A stretch of DNA of 64,000 nucleotides from Sporopachydermia quercuum (taxonomy: Eukaryota), in contig BCGN01000004.1 in the NCBI GenBank assembly GCA_001599295.1, forward strand, positions 128,138-192,137, given 5' to 3'. Below are positions 27,315 to 50,390 of this stretch, piece by piece. The notes beneath the pieces are model-generated. The model made no database searches and had not been told where the DNA came from. It saw only the letters and a list, made by a program, of their open reading frames with translations. Made by a program: the position numbers and the translations under genes. Position 1 is the stretch's first letter, and each line of letters starts with the position of its first letter.

Positions 27315-28640
27315 TCATACACTACTGAACTCATCCACACTTCTCAGAGAATTATAATGCTCTCCTAATCCGTAAACATGTTTATAATATACAATTTTCA
27401 GCTCAGGTTTCTTTCCTTCTTCGTTAAACCTCATTTCATCTTTACCATCAATTAAAACCAGTACAGGACACTTAAAAACTCTAGCTAATGCATATATCTC
27501 ACAGTTTCCACCCCATACAGCAGTATGCTCTAATTCATGGCAATAANTATCAATGTCTTTAACTATCAATGTTTCTTCATCTAAAAGAAAAGGAGTGAAC
27601 AAATCAGGGTTCTTTTTGATATATTCGGCAGTTAAATGACGTAACGAGGATACTGATTGAGCTATGTTATGCCGTTGAAGTAATTGATCACTGATGGAAG
27701 AGTATAAGCAATGGCCGTCAGGGATGATCTGAATATTATTATGTTAGTAACAATGTTGAAATATGAGTATGAATGGATCAAAATAAGCTGGCAAGTAGGA
27801 TAAACAGTAGGAGTAATAAATGAGGAAATGAGAAAACATGAGTGGATTATAAGATGCATGTACCTGCAAATTTTTCAACTTGCTGATAATGGACATTTTA
27901 CTCCTACTCTGTTCCACATACATGCTGCATTGCTCATTCACATGCTCATTCTCTCCGTTTCCTATATTATCATCCAAATTCCACCTTTCCTTCCTGAATA
28001 AAAAACGAAAAAATATAACAATGCTTACATCAAATTGAACTAGACCGTTCAGCTGACAGTATTCATCTACTTTTTTCAGCTCTAATTCCCTTAGATTTGG
28101 CTGATTCTTGGCTTCTTCTTCGGCTTCTTGTCGTAGTTTTTCAAGCTGCGCTTGTTTTCTTTCCTTTCTTTCTTTCTGTCGGTTCTTCCTTTGTTTCAAT
28201 GGCTGTTCGTTTATTTCGCTCTGTGGATTTTCTTGAACTTCCGCTGTTTGTTGAGGGTTGTTCAACTTTTCTAATTCTAGCTCTGCTAGTAATTTGGCAG
28301 CATTCAGCTCATCAGAATCTTCCGGAGAAATATCTCCAACAGGTTCTGGTTCCGGTTCCACTTCCAAAACAGCGGAGTTTCGGTTATATTTGAGTTCCAA
28401 TTCTTCTAACTGTAATTCATGCTTACGTAGCTGCTCAGCTTCCATTGTTTCGCATCTTTTCAGCAGCTCTTTTCGTTTTTTCCCCGAGCCTTTTGCTTGC
28501 TTTTTCAATCCTGTTATTTGAGAAACCAAATCGCGCCTCTCTTTCCTCTGCAAAGAAAGCACCTCTTCCTTAGTTGTCTCATAGGAAGAAGTAGAATTAG
28601 GTACTGATTCGCTGGCCACAGAAGATTCTTGTTCAGCCAT
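27315..28640 (-). CDS. OTU2: OTU-domain deubiquitinase Otu2/OTUD6 (2 exons, 341 aa)
   Basis: Exons 28640-28029 and 27728-27315; 300-nt intron GTAAGC..TACTAAC..CAG. Splicing restores FD|IIPDGHCLY (catalytic Cys), and exon 2 carries WGGNCEI and YGLGEHYNSL. Confidence 0.93.
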
Positions 28641-30604: not shown

Positions 30605-33067
30605 ATGTCAATGCTATTGAAGCTAGGAACCATTCCACGGATCCCCGTGCAAATGGCCGCTCAAACTGTTAGAACTTCCGTTGGCATCAAAAGATATTTT
30701 CGCCCTGCTCTCAGTGGGAATATGATCGTCAACAGTACTGTTGTCACCAGATTCAACTCTACTGGTAAGCTTGATAACACCAACACTTCTTTCTTGGCTG
30801 ATGCTGTCGCCGAATCTCTTGCCGACCCTGCCAAAGAAATACATGCAGAACCAGTGAAAAAATCCCAGAAAAAGGGACCCAATGCTGGTTTCGAACGTGC
30901 TAAGGAGTTTGAAACACCAGCTGAAGCTGAGACCCGTCGTGCTGCTAACAGAGAACGATTTTTAAACCAGCTTGAAGCTGATAATACCACCCTCAAAGAA
31001 GCCATAGATACTGGTGATGTCGGAAAAGCCCTGCAGTTTTTGCAAGACACCTATTCGCGTTTTTACTCTCCTTCTCCTTTTATTGTGAAGAACCTAGTTT
31101 CAAAGCTTGTCACCAAGAATAGAGCAGGATTGACATCGCCTAAAGTATCGGACGTGGTAGACGCAATAGTAGGCAACGACTGTGCTCGCAATTCGATGTT
31201 TGAGTCTGTTTTATTCGAGCTTCTCCGCAAAAGTGCATATGAAGATGCATTGCAAGTATGGGTCAAATTTCTACAGGTTGTGAACGTTATTCCCGAAAAC
31301 ATCAAGCTTGCAAAGTCCAAGAAGAGTGCAACAGATGTTGATAGTATTCTTGACAATAGCATAACTAGCAACAACAGTAAAGATCGTGGATCTTCCGATA
31401 CTCCTCAGCTTATTGATATCAAAGAAGGAAACGTCGACTGGAGTCAATATGGACCTTCCATCGAGAAAATCTTTATGGCATCTTTTGCCTCGTTTGTCCA
31501 TCTGAGTATGAAAGACAGTATTCCGTTAACTATGGAAATCATCAGGCAAATGTTTGTAACAGAAAAACTCCCTGACGATCTCAAACTGAGACATGTGCTG
31601 ACCAAAGCAGGTTTAGGCTTCAAGAATACTCTAGCAGTTGTAGACAAGATCTCTTCTTTGCAGCTTTCTTCGGATGATCCTAATGCTCCAAGTGTTCATA
31701 CCCAGGTTGGCATGAACATTAGGGCTAACAGAGAGGCCAGAATCAACGAAATCTTGACAGAAGTGAAAAAAGTGTCTGACAGTACTGGAATCCCCCTTTC
31801 AGAGGAAACCATTCAAGAGTTCATGAAAGCTTACATTCATTTCAAAAACCTAACGAAAGTCCGCGAGGTTTGGAACTTTTTCAGTCTGGGAAACACTCCA
31901 CCTTCACTAGCATCTTGGAATCTGTTATTAAAGGCAGAATCTGTTTATGGACATAAAAGAGAGAGAAAGGCCAGTGTTCTTTCGTTGATTAAAGTGATGA
32001 AAGAACGTAATGTTGAACCTGACGCTGAAAGCTACTGCCGTTTAGCTAGATGCTTTTTCGTTTATGGAGAAATAGAAAGAGCAGATGCTCTGCTTGCTAG
32101 GATGGAAGATGGTTCATTGGGTATCAAGCCTACGTTGCTGGTATATGACGAATATATCATTGGCTATGCTTTGAAAGACCCCGAAGCAGCTCAGAGGTTT
32201 TGGTTTTCGGTTCTTGAGAAATACCCTGAATTTAAGATCTCTCTCACTGCTTTCAATGCTATTTTGAACGGATATTCAAAAGCTGGAAGCTACAATGAAG
32301 CTATGAAATTGCTTGATATCATGCCGAAATACCGTATTGAACCTGACAAGGCTACATACACTATTATTATTCATTTATGTTCAGAAACAGCTCGTAAGAA
32401 TGGCACTGTTTTGGAAATGTCTGTATTGACAGATCTACTGGATGATGCTTCTAAGAAAGGCCTGAACTTGAACGCTGTAGCATTGAATTCGATCATTGAA
32501 GCTTGCCTCAAGGGTCAAAATGATTTACCATCAGCAAGAATGGTGTTTGATTATATGAGACAAGCTCGTGATGTTAGAATGGCACCTACTATTTATACAT
32601 ACACATCAATGATAGATGGTGAGTGTAAACAAGGAAATGCTCATAATGGTGTCCAATTGCTTGAAGAAATGTACAGCAGGCGAATGCAACCTACTGCTAG
32701 CATCTGGAACATCATTTTCAAGGGATTCAGAGCGGCAGGAGATGTAGATGCTTGTATTGATTTATATACTATCATGAAATCCTCTAGAGGAAACAGATCA
32801 CAACTTAAAGAACAAGAAAAGGCAAGTGGTCTGGGTAAATACAAAGCTCCTAGGGCTAATCTTTTCACATATTTCTATGTTCTTGACTGTGTGAAAGATA
32901 GCGAGAGATTTGATTTTATCAATGAGTTGCTTGACGATATGGATAAATCAGGAATCACCAAGTTTGGCGAGGGAAGTCGAAAGATCATTCGAAATTTCAA
33001 AGATGACAGAATTGCTGTTCCTCCTACTTTGATAGCTACTGTAACTGAGCATAATCAGAAGTTCTGA
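30605..33067 (+). CDS. Mitochondrial pentatricopeptide-repeat (PPR) protein
   Basis: Basic presequence; multiple 35-aa PPR units (SWNLLLKA, PDAESY, AFNAILNGYSKAG, PDKATYTIII, PTIYTYTSMIDG, PTASIWNIIF). Confidence 0.88.
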   Translation: MSMLLKLGTIPRIPVQMAAQTVRTSVGIKRYFRPALSGNMIVNSTVVTRFNSTGKLDNTNTSFLADAVAESLADPAKEIHAEPVKKSQKKGPNAGFERAKEFETPAEAETRRAANRERFLNQLEADNTTLKEAIDTGDVGKALQFLQDTYSRFYSPSPFIVKNLVSKLVTKNRAGLTSPKVSDVVDAIVGNDCARNSMFESVLFELLRKSAYEDALQVWVKFLQVVNVIPENIKLAKSKKSATDVDSILDNSITSNNSKDRGSSDTPQLIDIKEGNVDWSQYGPSIEKIFMASFASFVHLSMKDSIPLTMEIIRQMFVTEKLPDDLKLRHVLTKAGLGFKNTLAVVDKISSLQLSSDDPNAPSVHTQVGMNIRANREARINEILTEVKKVSDSTGIPLSEETIQEFMKAYIHFKNLTKVREVWNFFSLGNTPPSLASWNLLLKAESVYGHKRERKASVLSLIKVMKERNVEPDAESYCRLARCFFVYGEIERADALLARMEDGSLGIKPTLLVYDEYIIGYALKDPEAAQRFWFSVLEKYPEFKISLTAFNAILNGYSKAGSYNEAMKLLDIMPKYRIEPDKATYTIIIHLCSETARKNGTVLEMSVLTDLLDDASKKGLNLNAVALNSIIEACLKGQNDLPSARMVFDYMRQARDVRMAPTIYTYTSMIDGECKQGNAHNGVQLLEEMYSRRMQPTASIWNIIFKGFRAAGDVDACIDLYTIMKSSRGNRSQLKEQEKASGLGKYKAPRANLFTYFYVLDCVKDSERFDFINELLDDMDKSGITKFGEGSRKIIRNFKDDRIAVPPTLIATVTEHNQKF

Positions 33068-33752: not shown

Positions 33753-34547
33753 CTAATTATTCTCGGTTTTTCCCATTGCCTTGTTCCATAAATCAGTTGA
33801 CCATTTCTCTATCCGAACATAAGCACTACCAACATCATCTAATGCTGGTCGAACATCTAAATAAAAAGATGGCATTCCGTTTGGCTCATCGGGTCCTGAA
33901 TAATAATCAATCACATATCTTACTTTCTTACCATTATCGCCACCACGTTGTACTGTCCAATCATGTCTATCGAATGGTGGATCAACAGCATATTTAGGCC
34001 ATATAAATCCCAGTATTTGATGTAATGTAGCCTTTGGGGTTCGATCGTTGGGTCTTCCAGTGAATTTCAGTAATCTAGGTTCGGTTTTAACTTCTTCGCT
34101 GAACGGTTTCTCCCATTTGAGGATTTCTTGCCACGCGCCTTCATTAAGAAAGTTGTGGATTTCTACCATTGACTCAACAGCATCTTCAGGAATTTCTGCT
34201 GAAGAGTTCTTACGGAGCATGGCATTAAACATCTGCTGAGGAGATGGATATTCCCAAACACCTTCTTCTGGACTGCTTCCTCTGGGGATTGATGATAAGG
34301 TTCTTTCTGTAGGTAACGGTGTTTTCTGTCCAGGGGCTCTCTGCGAAGATAAATCCGGCATGTTGTTCAAAGGGTTTAAGACAGTTCCGTCGTGATCAAC
34401 AGGGCAACCAGAGGCCTGAGATTTATTGAATTTAGCTGTGAATTTGCTATGATCAACAGGACATTTGGCGCCTGAACCGCCATCAGAAGTAGCAGGAAAT
34501 GCAACTTCCTTGTTTGAAAGTTGTTTATCAGCCCAGAACCAACCCAT
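33753..34547 (-). CDS. CYC3: Holocytochrome-c synthase (cytochrome c heme lyase)
   Basis: ATG at 34547 gives MGWFWADK; two CPV heme-regulatory motifs; WEYPSPQQMFNAM, HNFLNEGAW, FDRHDW, YVIDYY, LDVRPALD. Confidence 0.96.
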   Translation of the reverse strand: MGWFWADKQLSNKEVAFPATSDGGSGAKCPVDHSKFTAKFNKSQASGCPVDHDGTVLNPLNNMPDLSSQRAPGQKTPLPTERTLSSIPRGSSPEEGVWEYPSPQQMFNAMLRKNSSAEIPEDAVESMVEIHNFLNEGAWQEILKWEKPFSEEVKTEPRLLKFTGRPNDRTPKATLHQILGFIWPKYAVDPPFDRHDWTVQRGGDNGKKVRYVIDYYSGPDEPNGMPSFYLDVRPALDDVGSAYVRIEKWSTDLWNKAMGKTENN

Positions 34548-37500
34548 CGTGAATAGTAGCAAGAATGTTGTTTTTGAATATGATATGATGTAGTGTGCAA
34601 GCTACTAGTTGTTAGAATGCAGAATCCTTCAGATAGATTCTAATGCAAATCAAGCTGTAATACGTAGTGTATTACTCTATTTTTATCTTATCTCTTTTAT
34701 GCTGATTTCTGATGAACAGGAAAGCAGCCGTTAGAATACCTTTACACTTCACTGTCTACGTAACTCTGAGCTTATCCAAATAGATGAGGTTATCGTGGAT
34801 TATGATACACAGCGTTTATGACTCTGGCAGTATTAAATATTGTCCGAGTTTTCTAGTTCAAATAGTTACTAATTTAGTAAGGGGGATAAGTGCTTTTTGC
34901 GGTCGTTAGTAATTTACACTATGTGGAAGCCTATTGGTTGATGATAAATTGAATATGATATAAAGAGAGACTTTTGTAAGGGAAATACAAATGAACCATA
35001 CAAACAGTGACTAGATAGATCGCTTTTAGTTCAGAATACAAAAAACATTTTCTGTGATTTTGGAACACCCAATCATTTCGAATTTCGGGAGAATATGAGA
35101 GACATGCTGTAGAAGGAGATGTAAACTTGAAAGGGTAAGTCTGGAGATGGAGACAGTGAAAATGTTGTATGTGTGGTATTTGACTGGAAGTTTAGAAGAT
35201 ACAGAGAAGGATAAGGGGAAGATGTTAAAAATGTACGTTTCATATTTTAAGCTAGTTTTTGCTGTTTGTTTGTTGGATTTCATCTGGCTTTATTGCAGAT
35301 AGGAACTGCTTTCACTTATTGCTAGTGAGATACGGTGAATAATCGGAGATGTACTCATATCCTGTCATAAGACACAATTAAGGCTGAGCGAAGAGGACGT
35401 TAAATCGGTGAAGCAAAACTTTGAAATGGAAGGAAAATGAATGATAATTTGAGATAATTTGAAGTCAACCGAAAAGATTGAAGAGAATTCAAAGGAGTTG
35501 CGGGAGAAGGAAGAAGAGACCATAGACCGATGTTGCGTAATTTGCAACATGGTCAGAAGCTTATTCAAACTGGCTTTCGAACTATCATATCCTGGATTGC
35601 ATTCATTGAAGATACTTTTCATATAAATTCAATCAACTAACAACGTCGCTTTCCCCATAAAGCCTCAGAAATCATTCTACTAATCAAGAACCCCACCGGG
35701 CTACCTACCTACTTTAAATTTACCACTTGCAGCGTGACAGTCTCAATATAGGTAAAGAAGTTCCAGTTCTGTGTTCATACAGTTCCAACTTTAGAGGTAA
35801 AACCGTCACAGAATAGGCTCAACCGTGTTACCATATGTTTCATATGTGCTTGCTTAATGCTATTTTAGAATTTACTGTAACGGTCTTCCCCAGACGAGAT
35901 ATCGGAGAAACTCATCGAAAGATTAACGTTAGGAGTCTCTTAAAGTTTAGACACAATCATCAACTTAAATTATCTTATGCCTAGAGTTAAACTTAAGTAA
36001 AGAAAATTTGTTTGAAATGTGGCTGTGTACCACACTATTAACTACAATACATTGAGGAAGATCGTTTGTGCACCAGAAATAGTACATTCGCTAACTGTAA
36101 ATCATATAGATTAATGGTAACTAACTGATATTTTGAAGAAAGCTTAGTATCTACTGCTAATTATAACTATGCGATAGAAAAACTAGAGTTTCTTACTTTT
36201 AGTTAAAATTGTTCTCTAGAGAAAATCTCCAAATTTTCTTTCAATGTAAGGTCGTACCTTTCTGTAACAGCGCTTACCAAAAAACTAAAGAATAGAAAAT
36301 CTCTAACCAGCATCCCATATACGTCTTTCAGAAGAAACCAAGAAATGTTTTTGGAAGGTCAAATGGTATTCTGTTTCTACAATAGCATTCCAACATATAA
36401 CTAACAATAATTAGAACCTTGACAATTCATTCTGGAGCAGCCCAGAGTTGTGGTTAATTCCTCAATAGGCAGTTAAAACATAAGGTTTGGAGATATACCT
36501 GTAACTTTGCAGTAACTTTAACTGTATCTTCAACCCCCCTTTGTTAACCTTATCAGTTGTATTAATTTTACAAAATGTTATAGTCAATGTTCTGTAATAG
36601 AGCGTGATTTGATATTAAAAATATGAACACTATAACTACGTGCTCAGGTCTAATTTAATAATCATTTAGGAAGAGTTTGAATTTTCTCCAGCTAATAGAA
36701 CTGAATTAATATAGCAGGTTAAATGTCAATTGTAATTTGAATATGAATGAAGCGTGGTATTATCTAAAGCTATCTAATGAAAGACAATATATCTTGTCTA
36801 GAGTTTACGATTTCACCTTCTGATAATCATTTGTGTATAGAGAGGGGTTGCCCGCGGTTTTCTATTCTTACAAGTAGGTTACATGAATACAGCGGAACCT
36901 TGTCTGAAATCTCCAACCTCATAATGTACGGTGTATAAACCATTTCCCTCTTAGACTTCCTATAGGATTCAAGTTTTCTCACACCACTTTGTATCTTTAT
37001 AAATTATAAGGAAAAAATTATCATAATGCACACATTCTCGTAATTATTGATTACTAGTCCCTCGTTCCTAGTCCTGTTCCCCTGAGTCATCGGATGGGTG
37101 TGAACTGTCTGGTAACACGCTAAACCAAAACCAATCACAACAGTACTACAACCACCTCCAGGCTGTACCTCCTTCTTATCGTTTTGGTCTAGATACAATC
37201 CAACGCAAAACTTTACCCAACTGATCTCTAAGTCACATAGCACTCTCTGGATAGGCCTAATAATCATCAGTTATAACAAAATATCCTGCAATATTTCATC
37301 AACATGCATAATTATTATGTGAATTTCATACACCACATCGGGACTCCTACACTCTAGACAATAATACAAAGTTGAAGTCGTCGTAAACTTTATTTATCTC
37401 TAAGTACTCTAAAAACTCTGTCAAACTCTAACTCTTATGCAAGTTTATGTATCGCTCGGAGGTCCGACTAACTAGCCAATCACTAGTGAAAATTGACATG

Positions 37501-37804
37501 TAATTAACAAATTTTACCTCCAAACCAAATTATGAGTGACCAAACCTAGTTTGTATGGTAAATAGGGGTATATTTCTGTTGTAATCTCAGTTAAATACAA
37601 AGCAAGTTTGTATAAATAACTTCCTAGCTTCCTCCTCAAATTAAAAATCAATTGTTGATGGAAAATTATTATATTCATAATACAGTGAACAATTATTGTA
37701 TTCAGTTATAACTCTTCAAGTAAATTAAATATAGAGTCAACGTTGTAATCACGGAAGCTCTTCATACTTAAGAAGAATCAATACAGTTATAAAGTATTAA
37801 AAAA

Positions 37805-39385
37805 ATGCAACTTTCATCTACAATCTTATTCTCAGTTTTGGCTGCTCTTGCAGCTGCCTCACCTGTACCAAAATTCCCTTCTCCTGTTCCTGTTGAAGAA
37901 GCAGCAAGAGAAGCCAGAACTTTGGTCTTCAGAGAGTCATTGACCAACCTCGTGACAATTCACCAAAAGGGTAAATTAGAAGGTACTCCAGTCTCTTTTG
38001 TTGAATACTATGCTGATTGCGATAACGAAGGTTCTCCTTACATCTTATCCCTTAACATTGGCACCTCATTTAGAAACATTGCTGAAGGCTCTCCTGCCTC
38101 ATTATCAATCAGAGTTGGTGATCATCCTTTCACTGAAAGAGTTGACCCCAACTACCCAGGTGGTATTGTCACCTCACCTGCTGGATCTCCTCGTATCTCT
38201 CTCGCCGGTAAGCTTGTTGATGTCACTGACCCACTTGAGATCGTTAAGGCTGAAACCTGTTTCCTTAGAAGACATCCTGAAGCTCATGCTTGGCTTCCAG
38301 GTAACCCCATCCACAAATCCAAATGGACCAAGTTTGATGTTGAAAATGTCTACTTATTAGGAGGATTCGGAGACCGTGCTTTCATTGGAGAAGTTCCTTT
38401 GGACTTGTACAAGTCAGCTAAACCAGTTCCCAGTCATGGTCCAGATCATGGCCCAGACCATGGTCCAGATGGTGAACATGAAGAACTTCAATTAATCAAC
38501 CAATCCGAAGATGGAGCACCAGCTGCTCCTTCTAACCCATGGAAGGACTACGGAAAGCAACAAAAGAAACACTGGAAGAAGTACGGTAAGCAATGGAAGA
38601 AGAAGTTCACTCCTCCTGCAGACTCTGATGATGAAGTCGAAGAAGAAGCCATTGAGGATATTCCCAAGGGACCTGCTCCTGGTGAAGATCCTTCTAAACA
38701 CTGGAAGAAGCACGGAAAAGATTTAGGAAAGAAATGGAAGAAGCACGGAAAGGACCAAAAGAAGAAGTGGACCCCTCCTTCTGACTCTGACGATGAATTG
38801 GAAGAACAAGCCGTCGAAGATATTCCTGAAGGACCAGCTCCTGGTGAAGACCCTGCTGACTACTGGAAGAACCACGGTAAGCAAATCGGAAAGAAATGGA
38901 AGAAGTTTGGCAAGGACCAAAAGAAGAAGTGGACTCCTCCTGCTGAATCGGACAATGAATCTGATTCTGAAGATGAATTAGAAGAACAAGCCGTCGAAGA
39001 TATTCCTGAAGGACCAGCTCCTGGTGAAGACCCTGCTGACTACTGGAAGAATTACGGTAAGCAAGTCGGAAAGAAATGGAAGAAGTTTGGCAAGGACCAA
39101 AAGAAGAAGTGGACTCCTCCTGCTGAATCGGACAATGAATCTGATTCTGAAGATGAATTAGAAGAACAAGCCGTCGAAGATATTCCTGAAGGACCAGCTC
39201 CTGGTGAAGACCCTGCTGACTACTGGAAGAATTACGGTAAGCAAGTCGGAAAGAAATGGAAGAAGTTCGGCAAGGACCAGAAGGAAAAGTGGGGTTCTGG
39301 TGTCGAAGAATTCGACAAGGAAGCTGATTCTATTTTAGAGCAAGCTATGGAAAAGATCCACGATATTGCTAACCAACTCTTTTAA
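37805..39385 (+). CDS. Secreted CREG-like/pyridoxamine-phosphate-oxidase-like split-barrel protein with C-terminal Trp/Lys-acidic repeats
   Basis: Signal peptide MQLSSTILFSVLAALAAA; EEAAREARTL, EYYADC, PRISLAG, CFLRRHPEAHAWLPG, YLLGGFGDRAFIG; five repeat units; strongly biased codons. Confidence 0.85.
   Translation: MQLSSTILFSVLAALAAASPVPKFPSPVPVEEAAREARTLVFRESLTNLVTIHQKGKLEGTPVSFVEYYADCDNEGSPYILSLNIGTSFRNIAEGSPASLSIRVGDHPFTERVDPNYPGGIVTSPAGSPRISLAGKLVDVTDPLEIVKAETCFLRRHPEAHAWLPGNPIHKSKWTKFDVENVYLLGGFGDRAFIGEVPLDLYKSAKPVPSHGPDHGPDHGPDGEHEELQLINQSEDGAPAAPSNPWKDYGKQQKKHWKKYGKQWKKKFTPPADSDDEVEEEAIEDIPKGPAPGEDPSKHWKKHGKDLGKKWKKHGKDQKKKWTPPSDSDDELEEQAVEDIPEGPAPGEDPADYWKNHGKQIGKKWKKFGKDQKKKWTPPAESDNESDSEDELEEQAVEDIPEGPAPGEDPADYWKNYGKQVGKKWKKFGKDQKKKWTPPAESDNESDSEDELEEQAVEDIPEGPAPGEDPADYWKNYGKQVGKKWKKFGKDQKEKWGSGVEEFDKEADSILEQAMEKIHDIANQLF
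38540..39292 (+). repeat. Coding tandem repeat, units of 162/162/180/180 nt plus a fifth cationic block
   Basis: First Trp codon of each unit at 38540, 38702, 38864, 39044 and 39224; 38821-39000 and 39001-39180 differ at only 3 of 180 nt. Confidence 0.95.
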
Positions 39386-40466
39386 GCTTGCTTGGGATAG
39401 TTTTTCTTGCTTTTAATTTTTTATGATTTTGTTTTAGATATGTATGGTTTAGGGGTAATTATTTTGATATAATACAGATTATGTTGATGCTTTAACAATC
39501 TCAAGTAGTTTTCTTACCTTGATATTAATTGTAAACTTCAATAACGAGTTGCGTTTTGCATTTGTTATCGGCAAAATCAATATATAGTCTGATATTGCCA
39601 GAACTCATTCATGTCTGTAGGCAACTCTCCTTCAATCACCTTATAATCTATTTCATATATTTTGCTTCATTTTATTCAATAAACTTGATGAATATACAAT
39701 TACAGCGGGCATTACAAGAAAATGAAAAATAATAACTTTCAGTTGCTGCTGCACTCTCATAGGATTATTGTCTCTTGTCACCTTCAATATCTTCTCTCTA
39801 AATGTTTTATGTTTGCCAGATCTCAGTCCCATAATCGACCAAACTCCTCTGAATTGATCTTACTAGGTATTTAATAAATAGATCATGATACAGCTCTCAA
39901 ACAAAACTAAGTAGCTATTAAATCATTCATATTATCTCCAGACAATTGCTCTTTAGCTAGTTTACTCCTTCACTTTTATTTTGTATTTCAAAACGGGGGT
40001 CTCACGAGATAATTAATTGCTAAGCCACACAACCCATGGGGTGATTGCGCTATCTTGCTCAAACTTTGTATCACAAGATAAACGTGAACACAAAATCTTA
40101 ATTCAGATTGTACAGAATGGTAGCAGAAAAAGAAAACCTTTTCAACCAGTGAAAAATGAATAATTTCACTTACTAATAGATTTACCTGCTGTTCAATCAG
40201 GCGAATAGATATGACATATAACGAGTAAGACAAAGAGCAATATGAATAATAATACATTGTACTATAATTCACAATTTTGAATAGAATTTATATTCCTCTC
40301 GTATTATATTTTCTCGTTTATCGATATCTTAGGAAGGAAACAGGGCTTATCGTCTGGATATTCTTACATCACACTATCTTTTAATAGGAAGCACAGCGAT
40401 AGCTTTTTGGCATAAATTTTCGATTGATTTGGGACAAACACAGACACAGGAACAGGAACAGACAAA

Positions 40467-40914
40467 ATGAGTTTGACAGAGAATAATAAGAAATTAATTA
40501 GAGGAGCATCTGCTATAGGCGTTGTTGCATTGACTATCTATGCTATAAGCAAATGTCCTACAGTGTACAGTTCACTTTCAGGATGGTTTAACAAAAGCGT
40601 TGAAGTTGAGGATGCTTCTATCAAAGGGTTTGAAGGTGATATTGTAAGTGCCAACGATGAAACATTGAGAAACTGGCTAGCAAAGGTACGTAATAGATTT
40701 CTATTTTGGAAAGGTAGGAGCGAGCTTCATAGGATGAGTTCCTTTTTTATTTTTATTTTTTATGCAAGTTTGCACGTGCTAATTATGCTGTAATTATAGC
40801 ATATCTATAGATCAAGGATCAATACTAACTACTAATCTTTAGAATGATATTTACCCACCAGCAGGTACTACTGTTGAAGAACTACGCGGCCTGGTGAAGT
40901 CATTGGCTAATTAA
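40467..40914 (+). CDS. 96-aa protein: N-terminal TM helix plus Ish1/HeH-like helix-extension-helix (2 exons)
   Basis: Exons 40467-40685 and 40843-40914; intron GTACGT..TACTAAC..TAG. Spliced C-terminus SANDETLRNWLAK|NDIYPPAGTTVEELRGLVKSLAN. Confidence 0.72.
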
Positions 40915-41588
40915 GAAATAATTAATGAGTAAATGTGGTGTGAAAGGTTAAACAGTTGGNGATCGATTGAGAATTTTTAATAACTGCTGCCTGAATAGTA
41001 ATGATAGAAATGTATCCTAAGAGTAACCCACCAGTAAAGATATCAGTAGAGGTGTCAGTAGACGCAAGGAAGGGGAAAAGCAGTATCAATGAATGCCTAA
41101 TACCAGTAATTCGTTTCGATTTATTCTCGTTTCTGATATTCATTTAGTTTAAGATCTTCAGGTTGTTGTTTTGTTACCTTGGGATTTATCAAATCTCCTT
41201 CAGTTTGAAGAAATCCAAACTTTCCTGTTTTAAGGTCGACTTTTACTTTAAAATACGACAGCGGTTCAAATCCACACTGTCCTCTTATGTAGGTAAATCG
41301 AATGTGTGATATGCCTGAGGTGGTTCCTGATCAGCATTGAAGCTACCATTTTACTGTTAGTTGTACTAAAGTATTTCCACTGACAGAGATTATAATTAAT
41401 ATCCGAAAATAGCTATCATTATCAATACTAACTAAGGATGTAGAGTTCATGTCGTATCTTCTCTTTCAAGTATAGTTATACAAAATGATTATTAATTTTT
41501 CACCAACCGAGCTTTCCTTTCACTATCAAGTTTTCTAGTAGCGAACTTGATATTCCCTATATTTTATTTTCTATTTCTTTTATTTCTT

Positions 41589-42810
41589 CTATTTTTTATT
41601 GCTAACTTTTCTTTCCCATTGCTTTAACCCTCTAACAAACAATTCCTTATCTACTCCTTGGACATAATCATCTACATATACAAAATGAACCCCATACTCT
41701 TCTACTTCATTATTTCTCATCTCATCGTCAAAGAATACCATCTCCTCAAATTCATCGCCTGTGACTTTACCCAGTCTTCTGAAATGTGCCTTTTTTGACC
41801 CTGTTCCCCATTCCATATGGTCAAACCATTGAATGGCAGGTTTATTGTTGATGAACAGTCCTTGTAGAATAGCTTGTGCAGTATCAGGAGTAGGCGTTCT
41901 GCTGGCAGAAACAACTTTCACACCTTTGGTTTTCAGATGGATTATTATTTCTCGGACATCGGGAAAGAAATCTACTTCAGTGTTAGCTCTATCTTTCACT
42001 TTACCTCTAGATGCTATGATAGGAGTATATAGGCAATCGCAATAGTGCTGAAAATGTTAGTATCAGAATCAGATATTTGGTGTAAAGTGGAGAGTTGCCG
42101 ATAGGGCGTTGATAGGAAAAGATAAATGAGAATATAAATGGCATAGTAGTTGAGAGAATAAGCCTTTGGATATCGAATGAAGGGTATAGTACAGAGTGAG
42201 CGACAGTTCAGCAGAAAGTGATGAGGAATGATTGAATTTTTGAACATTGAATTGACTTGCTGTATTGGAAGGTAATATAAGTTGTACAGCTCATTTGAAC
42301 ATATCCAAGATTCTATAGAGCAACTCAATCCCGACTGAATGGCTAACAATTAGTTCCCGTTATCCAGACAGTTCATCCTTCATCCAATGGATCACTATGT
42401 TGATACCAACAGAAACGAAAAATCTAATGCAATTTTTTTTGCAGATTATAACGAATCTGTCCTAACTACTGCGGAAAGTCATTTATGAAACTATAGAATG
42501 TACTTGATATGATTTAATGCTCTGAAGAACACACCAATCACTCGTTCGTACCCTCCATTGCCATTGTACAGTCATATCTCCATTCTACCTTGAGCTCATC
42601 TCAGCAAATCAAATACTTACAGCTAATCTTTTGGTTAGTACCCTTTGAAACAAACCCTCAAACTGAAAAAATGCTACACGTAAGACTATTCATAACATTC
42701 ATCGTCTTCTTCTTCTACTTACGCCATAATGTATAATCAAGGTCAAATACAACTACCTTTGGATAGCTAGTGATATCCAATGAATCAAAATCCGTATTGT
42801 TTCTGCCCAT
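41589..42810 (-). CDS. MDP1: Magnesium-dependent phosphatase 1 (HAD IIIC; YER134C-like), 3 exons including a 2-nt micro-exon, 182 aa
   Basis: Exons 42810-42723, 42622-42621 and 42047-41589 give PKVVVFDLDYTLWPHYCD, SASRT, GSKKAHF and MVFFDDEMRN. Confidence 0.9.
42621..42622 (-). other. 2-nt micro-exon (CT) of MDP1
   Basis: Minus strand reads TACTAAC-caaaagat-TAG|CT|GTAAGT; it completes the CCT Pro codon and the reading frame. Confidence 0.85.
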
Positions 42811-43927
42811 TGTGAAAAAAATGGATAGGTGATATGCAGCTAGTGAGATTAAGCCAAAACGTAGAGCCATTATTTGATTGACGAAGCAAATCAAATGAAA
42901 ATAATGGAAAAGGCGGAGGAGAAGAAGCGGAAGTAGGGAAAAGAATGAAAGAGAGGAAAGATGAGACTGCAAAAGAAATTTAAGGTTATTATTTAAAGTT
43001 TGGAAATAAGTGGATGATTATACATTGACTTCAAACAGTTACTTAGAATGATTATTTGTTCTACTATGTTTTAATCAGAGCTATACTAGGAGTAGATATT
43101 CTTGACTGAAATAGGAAGTACTGGGAGTTCTAAATGTTTTGTACTTTTTGAGTCAGATTAGTCAGAGATCGGAGGCATTGAAGTATCAAAGGAAGAGGCA
43201 CTAACTACTGTTGGGTTATCTAGATCAATTCAAGCTTTTTAACTTCAAACTCAAAATAAACTTGAGGTAACTTAATCCTACAATCCCGCAAGAAAATGAC
43301 ATGAGAGTGCTGCAATAATGAAAAGTTTATCAATTGTATATAGCAAAATTTACAGCTTTTTAGTAATAAAATAGGGGAACTAACTTTCAAAAAACGGCCT
43401 TTTTCATTATTTGCAGTCATTTCCGAAACGTTTTTTGATTCAGTTTGATGACTAGCACCTGGTATCAAATAAACCTAAATAACTCCGATGCATTAAACTC
43501 GCATTTCTGCACAATTTTATTTCCTGCCNTTAAACTCAATTATCAGCTCCGAAACAACTAAATAACTCTTTCTTCTTTCTATTCATTTCATTCTGAAAGT
43601 AATACAAATATAGCATGAAAATACGTAGAATGAGCCATTTTCAATCTTATTGTCGTGCTTTAACTATGTTGGCCATGATTTGCGTATCAGTATACATATT
43701 TTTTCCCAGTAGTTAATGGATTCACTAAAATGACATACAGTGCTGATCCGGTGGTCTATGTTTTAGTAACTATCACCAACATATTAACGGAGGATCACTG
43801 ACCAGAATTCATGAACTTGACAATGTTTTGACCCTATTTGCCCCAGCAGAAATGCCGTTTCTTGTTTTATCGATTTCTCGATCATCGTCTGCATTGAAAA
43901 TCCCGACCCTTCCTCCCCAGTAGGCCT

Positions 43928-45012
43928 CTAAACAGTTCTGAATACCTCCATTGGAAAATCAATCAGCTGCAAGTCCTTTATTTCAATATCATCAAACTGA
44001 CATAATGAAAGAAATGTTTTCCTTCTTGACTTATAAACATCATTTTTAGACTGATCTGTTCGACGTGTATGGCTCTTACTACTTCTACTACCATTAACAT
44101 CATTGCCATTCGTATCTGTCTCATGGCATCCTAGCAGGTAAGGCAAATTCTCATCATACAGCTGTAGAACCTTTTTTATCTGATAGCTGTAGCTTGTATT
44201 TATGAGTTCTGGAGTTTCTATTAAACGTTCAAGTTCTTTCAGTTGGATGTTTGTTGCTCTTTTATGAATTTCCTTAGTACTTGCTGATAGGTAGGTTCTG
44301 CGGTGATCAGTCCCCTGGATAGCCTCACCATCAGCATCGCTATTATTAAGATCAAATTCATTAATTTCGCTATTCCTCCTATTAAAATTTTTATTCTCAT
44401 TATCGCGGCAGTTTTCATACTCTTGACAGTGTTCGTTCTCATATTCGTAATGTGATATTATAAGAGATACCACTGTCTTGTTGAACGCAATATAGACATA
44501 CGGCAGATTGAACGAAACTCCTGGAGCAAAATTAATGATTTGAGGATAGTTATATGTAGAGGTTGCATAGTCGTAGATGGTCCTTGCTGAATATAGATAA
44601 CTCATTTCCAAGCTTGATTCCTTTTCTCTTTCTCTTANCCTTTCTCCTTCTCCTCCTGCAGTTGTACCTATCCCTATTCTTACTGCTTTATCTCTGCCTA
44701 ACCCTTTCGAGGCTAATAAATTACCAAGGAAAAACCAACCAAGAGAAAAAAACCTTTGTTGTGAAACAGACTGCTGTAGCACTTGAATTGCAGGATTTGT
44801 TTGGTTCAATTGATAGTATATGACTGCTAGGTTGTAGAGTTGTTTATATGATCTTGGTAGTTGTTTGAAAGACATGATTGCTTCGTGGTATAATTTTGAA
44901 TCGTAGTATCGGACTGCTTGAGCCCATTTTTGACGCTAGATTGTTAGAGAGAGTCGATAAAATTCATTATAATGAGTAGAAATTCAGAAAATATAAATAC
45001 CTTATAAGCCAT
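43928..45012 (-). CDS. Divergent NoxR/p67phox-like TPR protein (2 exons)
   Basis: Exons 45012-45001 and 44935-43928; 65-nt intron GTATTT..CTAAC..TAG. MAYKRQKWAQAVRYYDSKLYHEAIMSFKQLPRSYKQLYNLAVIY...FFSLGWFFLG...IINFAPGVSFNLPYVYIAFN follows the recalled NoxR N-terminal pattern. Confidence 0.62.
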
Positions 45013-47569: not shown

Positions 47570-50390
47570 ATGGTTTATAAACATCAAAAGGAAGATAAAA
47601 TGCTTTTCAAAACAGCAAGTGCCAATAGAAGAATCAACTTCGAAAGTGCCATCAACAGCAAAGGCATTAATATCAATAGCAGTAATAAAAATAATAATAA
47701 TAACACCATCATTAGCGCAAATCAGAACAATCTCAGCTACCAGCTCAGCCTAGCTAATCCTGTTGCTGATTTTCTGTATACTGCAACTGCTTCCCCTGAC
47801 ATTACCACTATCACTCCTTCAGACTCAGCAGCTAAACCATCAAACATAGCAAGAAATAGTAAAGCAAAAGAACGCATTTGTCCAAAACCCGCTATTACTG
47901 TCGCTAGCACTTCAGCTGAAAGCAGTAATTTTAATCCCATTCTGAGTGCTGCTCCTACTATCAACACTTATCCTGCCAACAACTCTTACTCCGTAACACC
48001 TAGTACACCGTCTAATCAATCATCATTACAATCAAGCAATCGACAAGGCAATGAAATCAGTACTGTAAATGAATCTCCATCACTAAGACTTCTCAGAAAA
48101 ATCAAAGAGGAGGATCTGGCGTACAGATCAAAGTATCTACAACACAGTAGTGAACCAAGTCAACTAGAAGGTTCCTCAAAACAGGGAGAGAAGAAACCAG
48201 AGAAGGAATCGCACAAGGAACTAGAAAAAAGACCAAAATCTATTCTGAAAACATCATCGGTCAGCAACTTCACAGTAAACACTAAAAAGGACCTTCTAAC
48301 TGGAAAAGAAAGACAGGATGAGCCAAGTAAACATTTCCAGGGGCAAATGATGAATACGGGCAGCAAGCTGGGTCAGTATAGTGGAACATCAAACAGTAAT
48401 GCAGCTATTCGTAAACATACTTCACCGTTTCGAATACGTGAAAGGTTCTGGAGTTTGTTTGCTGGGAATGCTAGTGGAGCTCCAGCTGAGGAAGATGCTA
48501 CTGGCAGTGTTGGTAGATCCGGTGATAGCAGCACGAACGCTTCTCATAAAGGAAAATATAAGGACAAGAATGGGAATACTGATAGAAATAATGAATGGAA
48601 TAATGAAAGGAATAGTGTTATGATCAGTTCTACTGAAGACTATGATACTGATGCTGAAACATATGCTAACACGCTTGCTAATGCACACACCAGCGATGTA
48701 GGAAGAATGTTTATTAGAAGTGACACTGATACAGATGAAATTGATAAAACTAGAACTGAGAATAGTTTTATTAGCAGTAATAATACTTATGTCTATGTTA
48801 ATGATCCTATCAATAGGAATGGTACTATCAGCAGTACTAATATTAGCGATAATACTAATAGTACCACTGCTAGCAGACACTCTGCCTTGTTATCTAACCA
48901 TCGGACACCAAATCAACATCCTCCTCAGCAAAGCAATTCGTTCCCTACTTCTTCTGATTCTCATTTTCACTCTCACTCATCCTCACATACTAAATTATCT
49001 TTCCTTCAACATAAACTACAAAGCAACAGCAAAGAGTTCAATGAAATAGCAAAAGAGGTCTTGGAAATGTCGTTTGACGATTTATTTCGCAATGGTTCAG
49101 ACAAAGAGCTGTATACGTTTCAATGGAACCATTTGACGAAGAATAGTAAGGACAGTGCTTTGGATCTGATCTATAATGTGTGGATCAGGAATGATGGAAA
49201 TAAACATAAGCATAGGGATATGGATATGGATAGGGATAGGGATAGGGATAGGGATTTTTGTAATAATAATGACAATTATGATGGTAGCAAGGACAGGAAG
49301 CACCAGTGTGGCCTTATTAATAGAAATGGTGTTGCTGGTTTTAGTAATAATAACTGTACCACCATCAGCAGCAACAGTACTGTCAGCAGTAGTTATGGTA
49401 GAGTTACTAGTGGCGAGGGTGGCGATGCGGTTAATACAACAAGTGAATATTCGATTGATTCTAAAGGGAGTTCAGTCGGTTCTGAAAATAGAGCAAATGA
49501 TAGAACAAAAAAACTAAATAGAACATACGACAGAATTATAGCCGATGCTTATTTGGCTGCTGATGCAAACAGTATTAATGTTGTCAGTGAAAAAAGTGCT
49601 AATATCATCAACAATAACATTCACACTATTAGCATTAACAGCAGTAATAGAAACAATAACAACACTTCTTCTATCGGGGCTTCAGACATTCGATCACTTC
49701 ATACTGTCACCGACTCCTCCAATTCTGGTAATTCCACTGCTACAAACCCTATCGCCAGTATTAGCAATACCAGCAACTTATCAAAAGCCATTCCAGAAAC
49801 CAATGGCAATAATAACAGAATTCATCACATTAGCAAAGCTCCTCATAGAAACCAAACACCTATCAACTACAATAGCAGTAGCAATCACAGCAATCTCAAA
49901 CCCTTATACTCCTCTTCCTCTCGGCCTTCTTCATCTTCTTCCTCATCTTCTTCTTCTTCCTCCTCCTACTCGTTTACTGCATTTTCAGCAACAATCAATC
50001 CAAGAGATCGCTACATAATAAAAGAATCGATCGACACTAAAAAGGTAACTCATTTCACCAAACTCCAGGCTGCATGGTTTCTTACAGCTTGTTTTATCAC
50101 AGAAAATGCCATAAGATTGCAATTAGTATTGTCGCTATCACTATGGTTATTATTACTCTTATTTAGATTATTCTGAGATGTTCATTGCTAACCAATCACA
50201 CATATTTATTCGTGGATCTTTATAGAAGCTACAGAACTATATTCACTTCTTTTCGCCAACCGGCAGAGCAGAAACACACTTGTTGCTGCCATGTGTTACA
50301 CCAGAAACGTATAGACTACCAATAGGAACAAGAGAAGGATACTTGGAGTATTATTATTTGCAGTGCGATAGTAGCATTTCACTATTTTAG
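47570..50390 (+). CDS. Large Asn/Ser-rich low-complexity protein of unknown function (probably 2 exons)
   Basis: 868-codon ORF. A probable intron 50045-50225 (GTAACT..TGCTAAC..TAG) joins in frame to a 54-aa exon KLQNYIHFFSPTG...YYYLQCDSSISLF ending at TAG 50390; unspliced, the ORF ends at 50176. Confidence 0.6.

What the first reader, a model, noticed from the sequence alone, without database searches (positions are those of the whole stretch)
37805..39385. Secreted CREG-like protein fused to alternating cationic Trp/Lys 11-mer helices and acidic spacers
Seen: signal peptide, split-barrel domain, then five blocks like WKNYGKQVGKK-WKKFGKDQKKK-W with aromatic residues every 11 positions, Lys-rich and Arg-free. 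They are separated by strongly acidic, Pro-rich spacers (TPPAESDNESDSEDELEEQAVEDIPEGPAPGEDPADY). Established: 11-residue periodicity marks amphipathic membrane-binding helices (synuclein/perilipin/LEA type), and cationic peptide plus acidic spacer is the layout of multi-copy antimicrobial peptide precursors. CREG-like proteins as I recall them lack such a tail. Inference: a polyprotein releasing membrane-active peptides, or a charge-patterned vacuolar/secreted scaffold for polyanion binding or phase separation.
Basis: partly seen in the sequence, partly recalled or inferred. Interest (0 to 1): 0.8.

Follow-up and report, generated by a model that had tools for sequence, protein, structure and literature searches.

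The report
Yeast CREG protein with Lys/Trp-helix tail
A budding-yeast secreted CREG-type barrel protein carries a tail of five lysine/tryptophan-rich helices alternating with acidic spacers, and this little-known, uncharacterised module also occurs on its own as small secreted proteins in related yeasts.

Summary
ORF 37805-39385 (+) encodes 526 aa. It has an N-terminal hydrophobic leader and a CREG split barrel (PF13883, E 5.7e-44; Foldseek to human CREG 1XHN, TM 0.78). The tail is 282 aa, with 54 Lys and no Arg. It holds five 23-residue blocks of two 11-residue units, separated by acidic Pro-rich spacers. AlphaFold2 models each block as one helix and each spacer as disordered. The hydrophobic moment peaks at 96-98 degrees, as expected for an 11/3 helix.

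The tail is not unique to this protein. A profile search of 1.84 billion representative proteins found 23 hits. The clear relatives are CREG fusions in Ogataea and Candida boidinii, and small stand-alone secreted proteins; every named one is from Pichiaceae. None is in Pfam, and I found no experimental paper. One stand-alone homologue is listed in computational surveys as a "Kex2-processed repeat protein", but only because KK is counted as a cleavage site.

Arg is strongly depleted across the family, KR/RR sites are nearly absent, and block ends carry D-P and T-P-P helix caps. I therefore favour an intact, multivalent, charge-gated binder of anionic surfaces (about 0.42) over a peptide-releasing polyprotein (about 0.25). 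Function is untested. Interest is moderate.

The parts
37805..39385 (+). Complete single-exon ORF of 526 aa plus stop
   Evidence: No CTG codons.
37805..37858 (+). Putative signal peptide, aa 1-18. The likely cleavage after AAA and before SP is an inference.
   Evidence: Hydrophobic run at residues 3-18. AF2 helix 3-17. Judged by inspection only.
37892..38410 (+). CREG-type split beta-barrel, aa 30-202
   Evidence: PF13883 E 5.7e-44. pLDDT above 90 over most of it. Foldseek matches 1XHN at E 2.4e-11, TM 0.78, and heme-bound At3g03890 (6M0A) at E 1.6e-11.
38430..38470 (+). 12-nt repeat encoding the HGPD-HGPD-HGPD linker
   Evidence: TRF: period 12, 3.5 copies. pLDDT below 50.
38540..38608 (+). 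Basic block 1, aa 246-268 (WKDYGKQQKKHWKKYGKQWKKKF), net +9. This is the irregular copy.
   Evidence: AF2 helix 245-268.
38609..38701 (+). Acidic Pro-rich spacer 1, aa 269-299, net -9
   Evidence: pLDDT below 50 for 268-285.
38702..38770 (+). Basic block 2, aa 300-322, net +9
   Evidence: AF2 helix 296-322.
38771..38863 (+). Acidic spacer 2, aa 323-353, net -12
   Evidence: Low pLDDT for 322-332.
38864..38932 (+). Basic block 3, aa 354-376, net +9
   Evidence: AF2 helix 350-376.
38933..39043 (+). Acidic spacer 3, aa 377-413, net -15, with an NES sequon at N384
   Evidence: pLDDT below 50 for 378-399.
39044..39112 (+). Basic block 4, aa 414-436, net +9
   Evidence: AF2 helix 410-435.
39113..39223 (+). 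Acidic spacer 4, aa 437-473, net -15, with an NES sequon at N444
   Evidence: pLDDT below 50 for 436-455.
39224..39292 (+). Basic block 5, aa 474-496, net +7
   Evidence: AF2 helix 470-497.
39302..39382 (+). Acidic amphipathic C-terminal helix, aa 500-526 (VEEFDKEADSILEQAMEKIHDIANQLF). It may correspond to the hydrophobic-patterned helix seen in relatives.
   Evidence: AF2 helix 500-525. The comparison with relatives was by eye and is an inference.

Best explanation
This is a real, intact gene of a budding yeast. It encodes a secreted CREG-family split-barrel protein. Its C-terminal 282 residues belong to a narrow, unnamed repeat family.

The family unit is an 11-residue motif, W-K-[HK]-[YHF]-G-K-[DE]-Q-K-K-[YKH]. 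Two such units plus a closing aromatic residue form one roughly 23-27-residue cationic amphipathic helix with an aromatic (W/Y/F) face. Each helix starts at a D/T-P N-cap and ends at K-K-K-W-T-P-P. Helices alternate with disordered, acidic, Pro-rich spacers.

Shown here: the anatomy, the predicted helicity, the 11/3 amphipathic phase, the family's narrow range, and its occurrence both fused to CREG and alone.

Inferred: the module works in the uncleaved chain as a multivalent, charge-gated anchor. The Lys/aromatic helices would bind anionic surfaces, either lipid head-groups or the phosphomannan-bearing wall. The acidic spacers would keep the helices soluble and partly neutralised near neutral pH. 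Acidification below the tail's pI (about 5.1) would expose the positive charge, taking the net charge from -13 at pH 7 to +36 at pH 4. In the fusion, this would hold the CREG barrel at that surface.

The near-total replacement of Arg by Lys is read as selection to pass the Golgi without Kex2 cleavage at KR/RR.
For: 1. Domain and fold.

2. Helix per block: AF2 gives one continuous helix per block (245-268, 296-322, 350-376, 410-435, 470-497) with 10-residue block means of pLDDT up to 88, and spacers below 50. The hydrophobic moment peaks at 96-98 degrees. At most 3 of 2000 shuffles reach it.

3. Conservation: in 143 tail 11-mers from 21 proteins, K2 is present in 137, G5 in 138, K6 in 136, Q8 in 106, K9 in 117 (plus 17 R) and K10 in 136. 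Blocks are almost always exactly two units. Spacers keep their composition and the TPP...P..P..[DE]P..[YH]W edges.

4. Independent module: stand-alone secreted forms of 59-376 aa exist. The named ones come from Pichia californica, Ogataea arabinofermentans, Martiniozyma, Brettanomyces and C. boidinii, all Pichiaceae. O. arabinofermentans has a CREG protein without W/K units (P0035) and a separate W/K protein (P0044).

5. Arg avoidance: 21 tails hold 770 K against 33 R. The CREG barrels of the same proteins hold 65 K against 71 R. Only 6 of the 33 R follow a basic residue, against 11.2 expected (hypergeometric P 0.035; the units are not independent). The window tail has 0 KR/RR.

6. Charge switch: tail pI 5.13, net charge -13.4 at pH 7 and +35.7 at pH 4.
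Against: - No binding, localisation or processing data exist for any member.
- No RNA evidence was obtained.
- Lys-rich, Arg-poor composition is also usual in many antimicrobial peptides (recalled), so Arg depletion does not exclude a peptide precursor.
- The charge balance is not uniform in the family. Stand-alone members range from pI 5.0 to 8.9, which weakens a strict masking model.
- A conserved core with variable spacers, and copy number that varies between species, are equally typical of polyprotein precursors.
- One homologue is listed as a Kex2-processed repeat protein in two computational surveys.
- AF2 helicity of a Gly-containing, Lys-rich segment may hold only on a surface.
Confidence: 0.42

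Rival explanations
1. Polyprotein precursor. The tail, and the stand-alone relatives, are cut in the secretory pathway or at the cell surface to release many copies of cationic W/K peptides. These would be either the 23-27-residue helices or 9-11-residue units ending in KK. They would act as antimicrobial, killer-type or signalling peptides. The acidic spacers would serve as neutralising pro-pieces.
For: - The layout of cationic amphipathic cores alternating with anionic spacers is present.
- The core is conserved while spacers and copy number vary between species.
- Stand-alone members are little more than a signal peptide plus repeats.
- Each 11-mer ends in KK.
- The homologue ODV86226.1 (P0044) is listed in Table S2 of PMC7329392 as a KEP, with 'Detection in Marquer et al.' marked Yes.
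- PMC6339444 states that KEX2 sites are KR or RR and 'to a lesser extent KK' (passage).
Against: - That listing is formal. The pipeline accepts KR, KK, RK or RR between repeats (methods passage), and any Lys-rich repeat satisfies this.
- The window tail has no KR/RR. Across 21 tails there are 6 [KR]R dipeptides, fewer than expected.
- KK lies within the blocks (GKK|W, WKK|F) as well as at their ends, so KK cleavage would fragment the helices.
- The N-terminal edge (…EDPADY|W) has no basic residue in four of the five blocks.
- Block edges look like helix caps (D-P, T-P-P).
- The strict Arg preference of Kex2 at P1 is recalled from memory and was not tested here.
Confidence: 0.25
2. Polyanion-binding or phase-separating scaffold. 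The blocky polyampholyte tail binds soluble polyanions, such as vacuolar or extracellular polyphosphate or nucleic acid. Alternatively it self-associates through block-to-spacer electrostatics to form a condensate or matrix, in the vacuole or outside the cell.
For: - Charge segregation is extreme: blocks +9, spacers -9 to -15.
- The tail is near-isoelectric at pH about 5.1.
- Tails of other yeast CREG proteins differ in sequence but are also rich in Lys, His and acidic residues (median 12% K, 6% H, 19% D+E in 37 proteins). This suggests charge rather than sequence is the ancestral requirement.
- Animal CREG is mainly endolysosomal (abstract of PMC6212480, seen in the listing).
Against: - The strict conservation of W1, G5 and Q8 and of a two-unit block length goes beyond what charge patterning needs.
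- The amphipathic phase with an aromatic face points to an interface and not a soluble polyanion.
- There are no localisation data.
Confidence: 0.15
3. The tail is a fast-evolving low-complexity appendage with no specific role, for example a solubility or spacer tail expanded by replication slippage.
For: - The last 2.8 units are 96% identical at the DNA level, showing recent expansion.
- Yeast CREG tails differ widely between lineages.
- Copy number differs between close Ogataea species.
Against: - The 11-mer is conserved across at least five named Pichiaceae lineages at roughly 45% overall identity.
- It is kept as separate genes with their own signal peptides.
- Arg depletion is family-wide.
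- The reading frame is preserved through 1.58 kb.
Confidence: 0.08

Closest known systems
[quoted passage not shown]
   Same: The N-terminal half is a member. The Pfam match has E 5.7e-44, and the Foldseek match to 1XHN has E 2.4e-11, TM 0.78 normalised by target. It has a secretory leader, as the animal protein does.
   Different: Animal and plant CREG is described as single-domain (PMC11602992 passages). This protein adds a tail longer than the barrel. Structural matches to heme-binding split barrels (6M0A, 5BNC) score as well as CREG, so ligand binding is open. Mannose-6-phosphate receptor biology does not apply to yeast (recalled).
Kex2-processed repeat proteins (KEPs) and multi-copy antimicrobial or pheromone precursors
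   Same: It has a signal peptide, tandem conserved cores and variable spacers. A stand-alone homologue (ODV86226.1) is listed as a KEP in PMC7329392 Table S2, and that table says it was also detected by Le Marquer et al..
   Different: No KR/RR sites flank the cores here. Only KK is present, and it also lies inside the cores. There is no XA/XP Ste13 frame after a dibasic site. The tail is fused to a folded 170-residue domain. No peptide has been detected experimentally for any member; I found no paper.
11-residue amphipathic-helix repeat proteins (apolipoproteins A/E, alpha-synuclein, perilipins, group 3 LEA)
   Same: It shares the 11-residue period, the 11/3 helical phase (moment maximum at 96-98 degrees) and a conserved Gly within each 11-mer, as in the synuclein KTKEGV motif (recalled). 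It also shares a predicted helix that may form only on a surface.
   Different: There is no sequence relationship; no such Pfam family is matched. Blocks are only two units long and are interrupted by long acidic spacers. The apolar face is purely aromatic and narrow. The charge is +9 per 23 residues, far higher than in those families.
Dehydrins (plant LEA group 2): Lys-rich K-segments between disordered segments, with an acidic or Ser stretch
   Same: The architecture is similar (recalled, not tested): repeated Lys-rich amphipathic helices separated by disordered linkers, with Ser/acidic runs such as ESDNESDSEDELEE.
   Different: There is no sequence similarity in any search. This protein is secreted, not cytosolic. 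It is Trp-rich and occurs in yeast.

Membership tests
CREG family (PF13883) | Match to the family profile above the curated cutoff | tested here: met
   150.5 bits against a cutoff of 27, residues 30-202.
CREG family (PF13883) | Split beta-barrel fold like human CREG (1XHN) | tested here: met
   AF2 pLDDT is above 90 over most of the barrel. Foldseek to 1xhn_B gives E 2.4e-11, TM(target) 0.78.
CREG family (PF13883) | Secretory signal peptide | tested here: met
   Residues 3-18 form a hydrophobic run followed by an AAA|SP site. This was judged by inspection; no dedicated predictor was available.
CREG family (PF13883) | Single-domain protein of about 220 aa, as in animals and plants | tested here: not met
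   The protein is 526 aa with a 282-aa repeat tail. The single-domain statement comes from PMC11602992 passages.
CREG family (PF13883) | No flavin binding; lysosomal targeting through glycans | not testable with these tools
   Sequons lie at N232, N384 and N444. There are no ligand or localisation data.
Kex2-processed repeat proteins (KEPs) | ER signal peptide plus three or more tandem repeats | tested here: met
   Five blocks; TRF finds 4.4 copies of a 180-nt unit.
Kex2-processed repeat proteins (KEPs) | Repeats separated by Kex2 recognition sites | tested here: inconclusive
   There are 0 KR/RR sites in the tail. Many KK sites are present. KK counts in the pipeline of PMC7329392 and 'to a lesser extent' in PMC6339444, but it also lies inside the cores.
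Kex2-processed repeat proteins (KEPs) | Released repeat peptides | not testable with these tools
   This needs peptidomics.
11-mer amphipathic-helix lipid-binding proteins (apolipoprotein, synuclein, perilipin, LEA3) | 11-residue periodicity with an amphipathic 11/3 helix | tested here: met
11-mer amphipathic-helix lipid-binding proteins (apolipoprotein, synuclein, perilipin, LEA3) | Sequence membership in one of those families | tested here: not met
   No such Pfam family is matched, even at E up to 10. The only Apolipoprotein matches are weak and below cutoff, and they are to the distant hits P0050 and P0052.
11-mer amphipathic-helix lipid-binding proteins (apolipoprotein, synuclein, perilipin, LEA3) | Lipid or membrane binding | not testable with these tools
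   This needs liposome assays.

The most novel reading that the evidence does not exclude
The W/K module could define a Pichiaceae-restricted family of secreted, Arg-free, acid-gated membrane-active helices. This would be a yeast-encoded competition or defence (killer-type or antimicrobial) system, delivered as multi-copy arrays either alone or on a CREG carrier. The acidic spacers would act as built-in, pH-released inhibitors.
Probability: 0.2. Interest if true: 0.7.

Novelty: new variant of a known kind. Interest (0 to 1): 0.5.

Why it matters
The result has three consequences.

- It defines an unannotated, lineage-restricted secreted repeat family. Only 23 hits were found among 1.84 billion representative proteins, and none matches a Pfam family above its cutoff. 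The yeasts concerned include industrial hosts such as Ogataea, the C. boidinii group and Brettanomyces.
- It shows that budding-yeast CREG proteins, themselves uncharacterised, regularly carry long charged tails.
- It gives a concrete, cheap test of two ideas. One is whether Lys-only composition is a way for cationic proteins to escape Kex2 in the yeast secretory pathway. The other is whether a cationic-helix/acidic-spacer array acts as a pH switch.

If the helices are membrane- or wall-active, they could serve as secretion-compatible anchoring or antimicrobial tags. If they are cleaved, they would be a new yeast peptide family.

Tried and rejected
- **Own genome:** none is held for this window (error), so paralogues elsewhere in the genome could not be sought. 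Within the 64-kb window the motif occurs only in this ORF.
- **Sequence search of the PDB:** the whole protein and one 27-aa block gave only chance-level hits (E at least 0.58).
- **Pfam on the tail alone:** nothing above cutoffs. KIF26 HTH scored 24.2 bits against 27, and the HMG box 15.1 against 25.4.
- **ESM Atlas:** no usable hit for the tail. For P0044 the best scores were 0.79-0.82, within the chance range the tool states. One cluster had 19% 'Bacteriocin_CLI3235', which I do not count.
- **Earlier findings of this scan:** nothing by sequence or by words.
- **RNA evidence:** no RNA holder was listed.
- **Laid contigs:** two DNA runs match the flanks with 0-1 differences but do not bridge 38830-39238.
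- **CREG barrel tree:** the backbone is unresolved, so one fusion cannot be told from several. I failed to drop the three CREG-less rows P0036, P0039 and P0040, which form a long-branch artefact.
- **Literature:** searches found no paper on a yeast CREG protein or on the accessions of the named homologues. One search was spoiled because 'Candida' matched 'candidate'. The Pichia hit of one search (PMC8717153) lists the protein among what look like milk proteins.
- **Le Marquer supplement:** the held text of PMC6339444's supplements did not contain the relevant rows. That survey's own entry for the homologue was therefore not seen. I saw only the 'Yes' flag in PMC7329392 Table S2.
- **Promelittin-type dipeptidyl processing:** the residues before each W do not fall into an X-Pro/X-Ala register. 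This was checked by eye on the sequence.
- **Shorter CREG forms:** Their absence is not claimed.
Full report
**Observation**

The ORF at 37805..39385 (+) is uninterrupted and encodes 526 aa. It has no CTG codon, so alternative yeast codes do not matter.

Residues 3-18 form a hydrophobic leader followed by AAA|SP. This was judged by inspection and supported by AF2 helix 3-17. Residues 30-202 match PF13883 CREG_beta-barrel at E 5.7e-44.

The remaining 282 residues hold 54 Lys, 68 Asp+Glu, 25 Pro, 15 Trp and no Arg. There are five basic blocks, at aa 246-268, 300-322, 354-376, 414-436 and 474-496. Each carries Trp at positions i, i+11 and i+22. Block 1 is irregular.

The blocks carry net +9, and the last +7. 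The four spacers of 31-37 aa carry -9 to -15 and have six Pro each.

At the DNA level there is a 180-nt period (4.4 copies). The last 2.8 copies are 96% identical. A 33-nt period is nested inside.

**Structure**

AlphaFold2 was run on a 40-sequence alignment and gave mean pLDDT 73. It models the barrel confidently. Each basic block is one continuous helix: 245-268, 296-322, 350-376, 410-435 and 470-497, with 10-residue block means of pLDDT up to 88. The spacers are disordered (below 50). The protein ends in a helix at 500-525.

Foldseek places the barrel beside human CREG (1XHN, E 2.4e-11, TM 0.78 by target). It scores equally well against heme-binding split barrels: At3g03890 (6M0A, E 1.6e-11) and MSMEG_6519.

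The hydrophobic moment of every block peaks at 96-98 degrees per residue, the 11/3 helix angle. Its values are 0.51-0.59, against 0.18-0.21 +/- 0.09-0.10 for shuffles, and at most 3 of 2000 shuffles reach them.

On such a helix W1, aromatic 4, residue 8 and residue 11 form a narrow aromatic stripe bordered by Gly5. The Lys residues fill the rest. This geometry was worked out by hand from the consensus.

Helices begin just after a conserved [DT]-P and end at K-K-K-[WYF]-[TAG]-P-P. I read these as helix caps; this is an inference.

**Relatives**

A word-indexed search with the whole protein found 38 proteins, 36 of them with the CREG domain. Counting the window's protein, 8 of 37 CREG proteins carry W/K units:
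- the window protein;
- four Ogataea species records plus one further record (P0003, P0004, P0006, P0009, P0012);
- two C. boidinii-type records (P0002, P0005).

The other 29 carry different tails of 83-619 aa that are also rich in Lys, His and acidic residues. All of these were preselected to be at least 289 aa. Shorter, tail-less yeast forms were not searched.

I built a profile from the window tail and three CREG-less relatives and searched it against 1.84 billion representative proteins. It returned only 23 hits at E up to 1e-3, 15 of them at E up to 1e-10.

The strong hits are small proteins of 59-376 aa. Most have their own signal peptide, a short hydrophobic-patterned helix, W/K blocks with acidic spacers, and a hydrophobic C-terminus.

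The named ones come from Pichia californica, Ogataea (Candida) arabinofermentans, Martiniozyma asiatica, Brettanomyces naardenensis and C. boidinii. All are Pichiaceae in the NCBI taxonomy.

O. arabinofermentans has a CREG protein without W/K units (P0035) and a separate W/K protein (P0044). The module has therefore been joined to or split from CREG at least once. A barrel tree could not resolve how often (it was flawed because I left in three CREG-less rows).

Over 143 tail 11-mers from 21 proteins the consensus is W-K-[HK]-[YHF]-G-K-[DE]-Q-K-K-[YKH]. Counts are K2 137, G5 138, K6 136, Q8 106 and K10 136. Blocks are almost always two units long. An earlier count of 101 units included a W-W pair inside the barrel and is superseded.

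The weaker hits carry related W/F-x-x-F-G 11-mers without the Lys richness (P0049, P0050, P0052). Their homology is uncertain.

**What is known**

No Pfam family covers the tail or the stand-alone proteins. No PDB sequence matches. The Atlas gave nothing usable.

I found no paper on a yeast CREG protein or on the named homologues.

[quoted passage not shown] Its Table S2 lists ODV86226.1, the accession of P0044, as KEP type 0. It also marks that protein as detected by Le Marquer et al..

That pipeline requires a signal peptide and at least three repeats of at least 8 aa between KR, KK, RK or RR (methods passage). Any Lys-rich repeat passes such a filter. The listing is therefore a formal label and carries no evidence of processing.

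I could not see the corresponding row in the held supplements of PMC6339444.

**Mechanism**

Two readings compete.

*For a polyprotein.* The layout resembles antimicrobial-peptide and pheromone precursors. Cores are conserved while spacers and copy number vary. Each 11-mer ends in KK.

*Against a polyprotein.*
- The window tail has no KR or RR.
- In 21 tails there are 770 Lys but only 33 Arg. The barrels of the same proteins have 65 Lys and 71 Arg.
- Only 6 of the 33 Arg follow a basic residue, against 11.2 expected (P 0.035; the units are not independent). Most Arg sit in Q-R-K, which is not a dibasic P2-P1 site.
- KK also lies inside the helices.
- The upstream edge of most blocks has no basic residue.
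- Block edges look like helix caps.
- In three lineages the array hangs on a folded domain.

I read the Arg depletion as selection to pass Kex2 intact. That Kex2 needs Arg at P1 is recalled and was not tested here.

I therefore favour an uncleaved, multivalent binder of anionic surfaces. The acidic spacers would neutralise the helices near neutral pH. The tail has pI 5.13 and net charge -13.4 at pH 7, rising to +35.7 at pH 4. Acidification of the medium or compartment would thus unmask the cationic faces.

The charge balance differs among relatives (pI 5.0-8.9), so the gating part is the weakest step. Which surface is bound (lipid, phosphomannan wall or polyphosphate) is open. A polyanion or condensate scaffold is kept as a separate rival.

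**Context**

The neighbours are ordinary yeast genes: a PPR protein (30605-33067) and cytochrome c heme lyase (33753-34547). The heme lyase is at most 61-69% identical to any protein in the collection. Its best hits are spread over many budding-yeast families. The window protein itself has no identical entry. The species therefore has no close relative in these databases.

The same DNA stands in contigs of two independent studies with 0-1 differences in the flanks. Those short-read contigs break within the near-identical units.

**Verdict**

The barrel is an ordinary CREG-family member.

The tail is a member of a narrow, unnamed and experimentally untouched secreted repeat family. That family had been noticed only as an automatic KEP listing. 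It is a new variant of known kinds (11-mer amphipathic-helix repeats, and repeat precursors) and does not amount to a new category. Its function is open, and interest is moderate.

Noticed in passing
window 38430-38470: A 12-nt tandem repeat (3.5 copies) encodes HGPD-HGPD-HGPD in the linker between the barrel and the tail. Other yeast CREG proteins have comparable PHGE/PHGK or KHH runs at this place.
   Followed up: no
relatives P0003, P0004, P0006, P0009, P0012, P0007, P0010, P0013-P0017 (tails); P0036, P0040-P0048 (N-termini); window aa 500-526: A short hydrophobic-patterned helix, of the type LTRFVKAFSSFF, LNKLWTKVNQFF or GLMDSIASIL, follows the barrel in many yeast CREG proteins. It also opens the stand-alone W/K proteins. 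The window protein lacks it after the barrel but ends in a similar helix (SILEQAMEKIHDIANQLF). This suggests the stand-alone genes arose from a CREG gene by loss of the barrel, or the reverse.
   Followed up: partly
relatives P0010, P0013, P0018, P0020, P0022, P0027, P0032 (tails): Other yeast CREG tails repeat a motif of the type [ST]-x-E-E-[IL]-[FY]-x-x-H-H, together with His/Lys runs such as KHHKG. This could be metal- or heme-related, given the barrel's structural match to heme-binding split barrels.
   Followed up: no
P0050, P0052 (distant hits): These long proteins carry many 11-residue AFKEFGKDTE-type repeats that share the aromatic-K-x-F-G-K-D core. They also have weak, below-cutoff Apolipoprotein and SseC-like matches. 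They are possibly bacterial, and their relation to the yeast family is uncertain.
   Followed up: partly
window 37805-39385: Lys codon use differs sharply within the gene: 47 AAG to 7 AAA in the tail, against 5 to 5 in the first 244 codons.
   Followed up: no
window 34548-37804 and 39386-43927: Long stretches flank the gene without any ATG-initiated ORF of 150 aa or more. Three nearby ORFs have no Pfam match (27744-28640, 43928-44875, 47570-50176). No tRNA gene occurs in the whole window.
   Followed up: no
P0044 (UniRef name): A source names this stand-alone W/K protein 'WW domain-containing protein'. No WW family appears in the Pfam scan, so the name is probably an artefact of the regularly spaced Trp residues.
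   Followed up: partly
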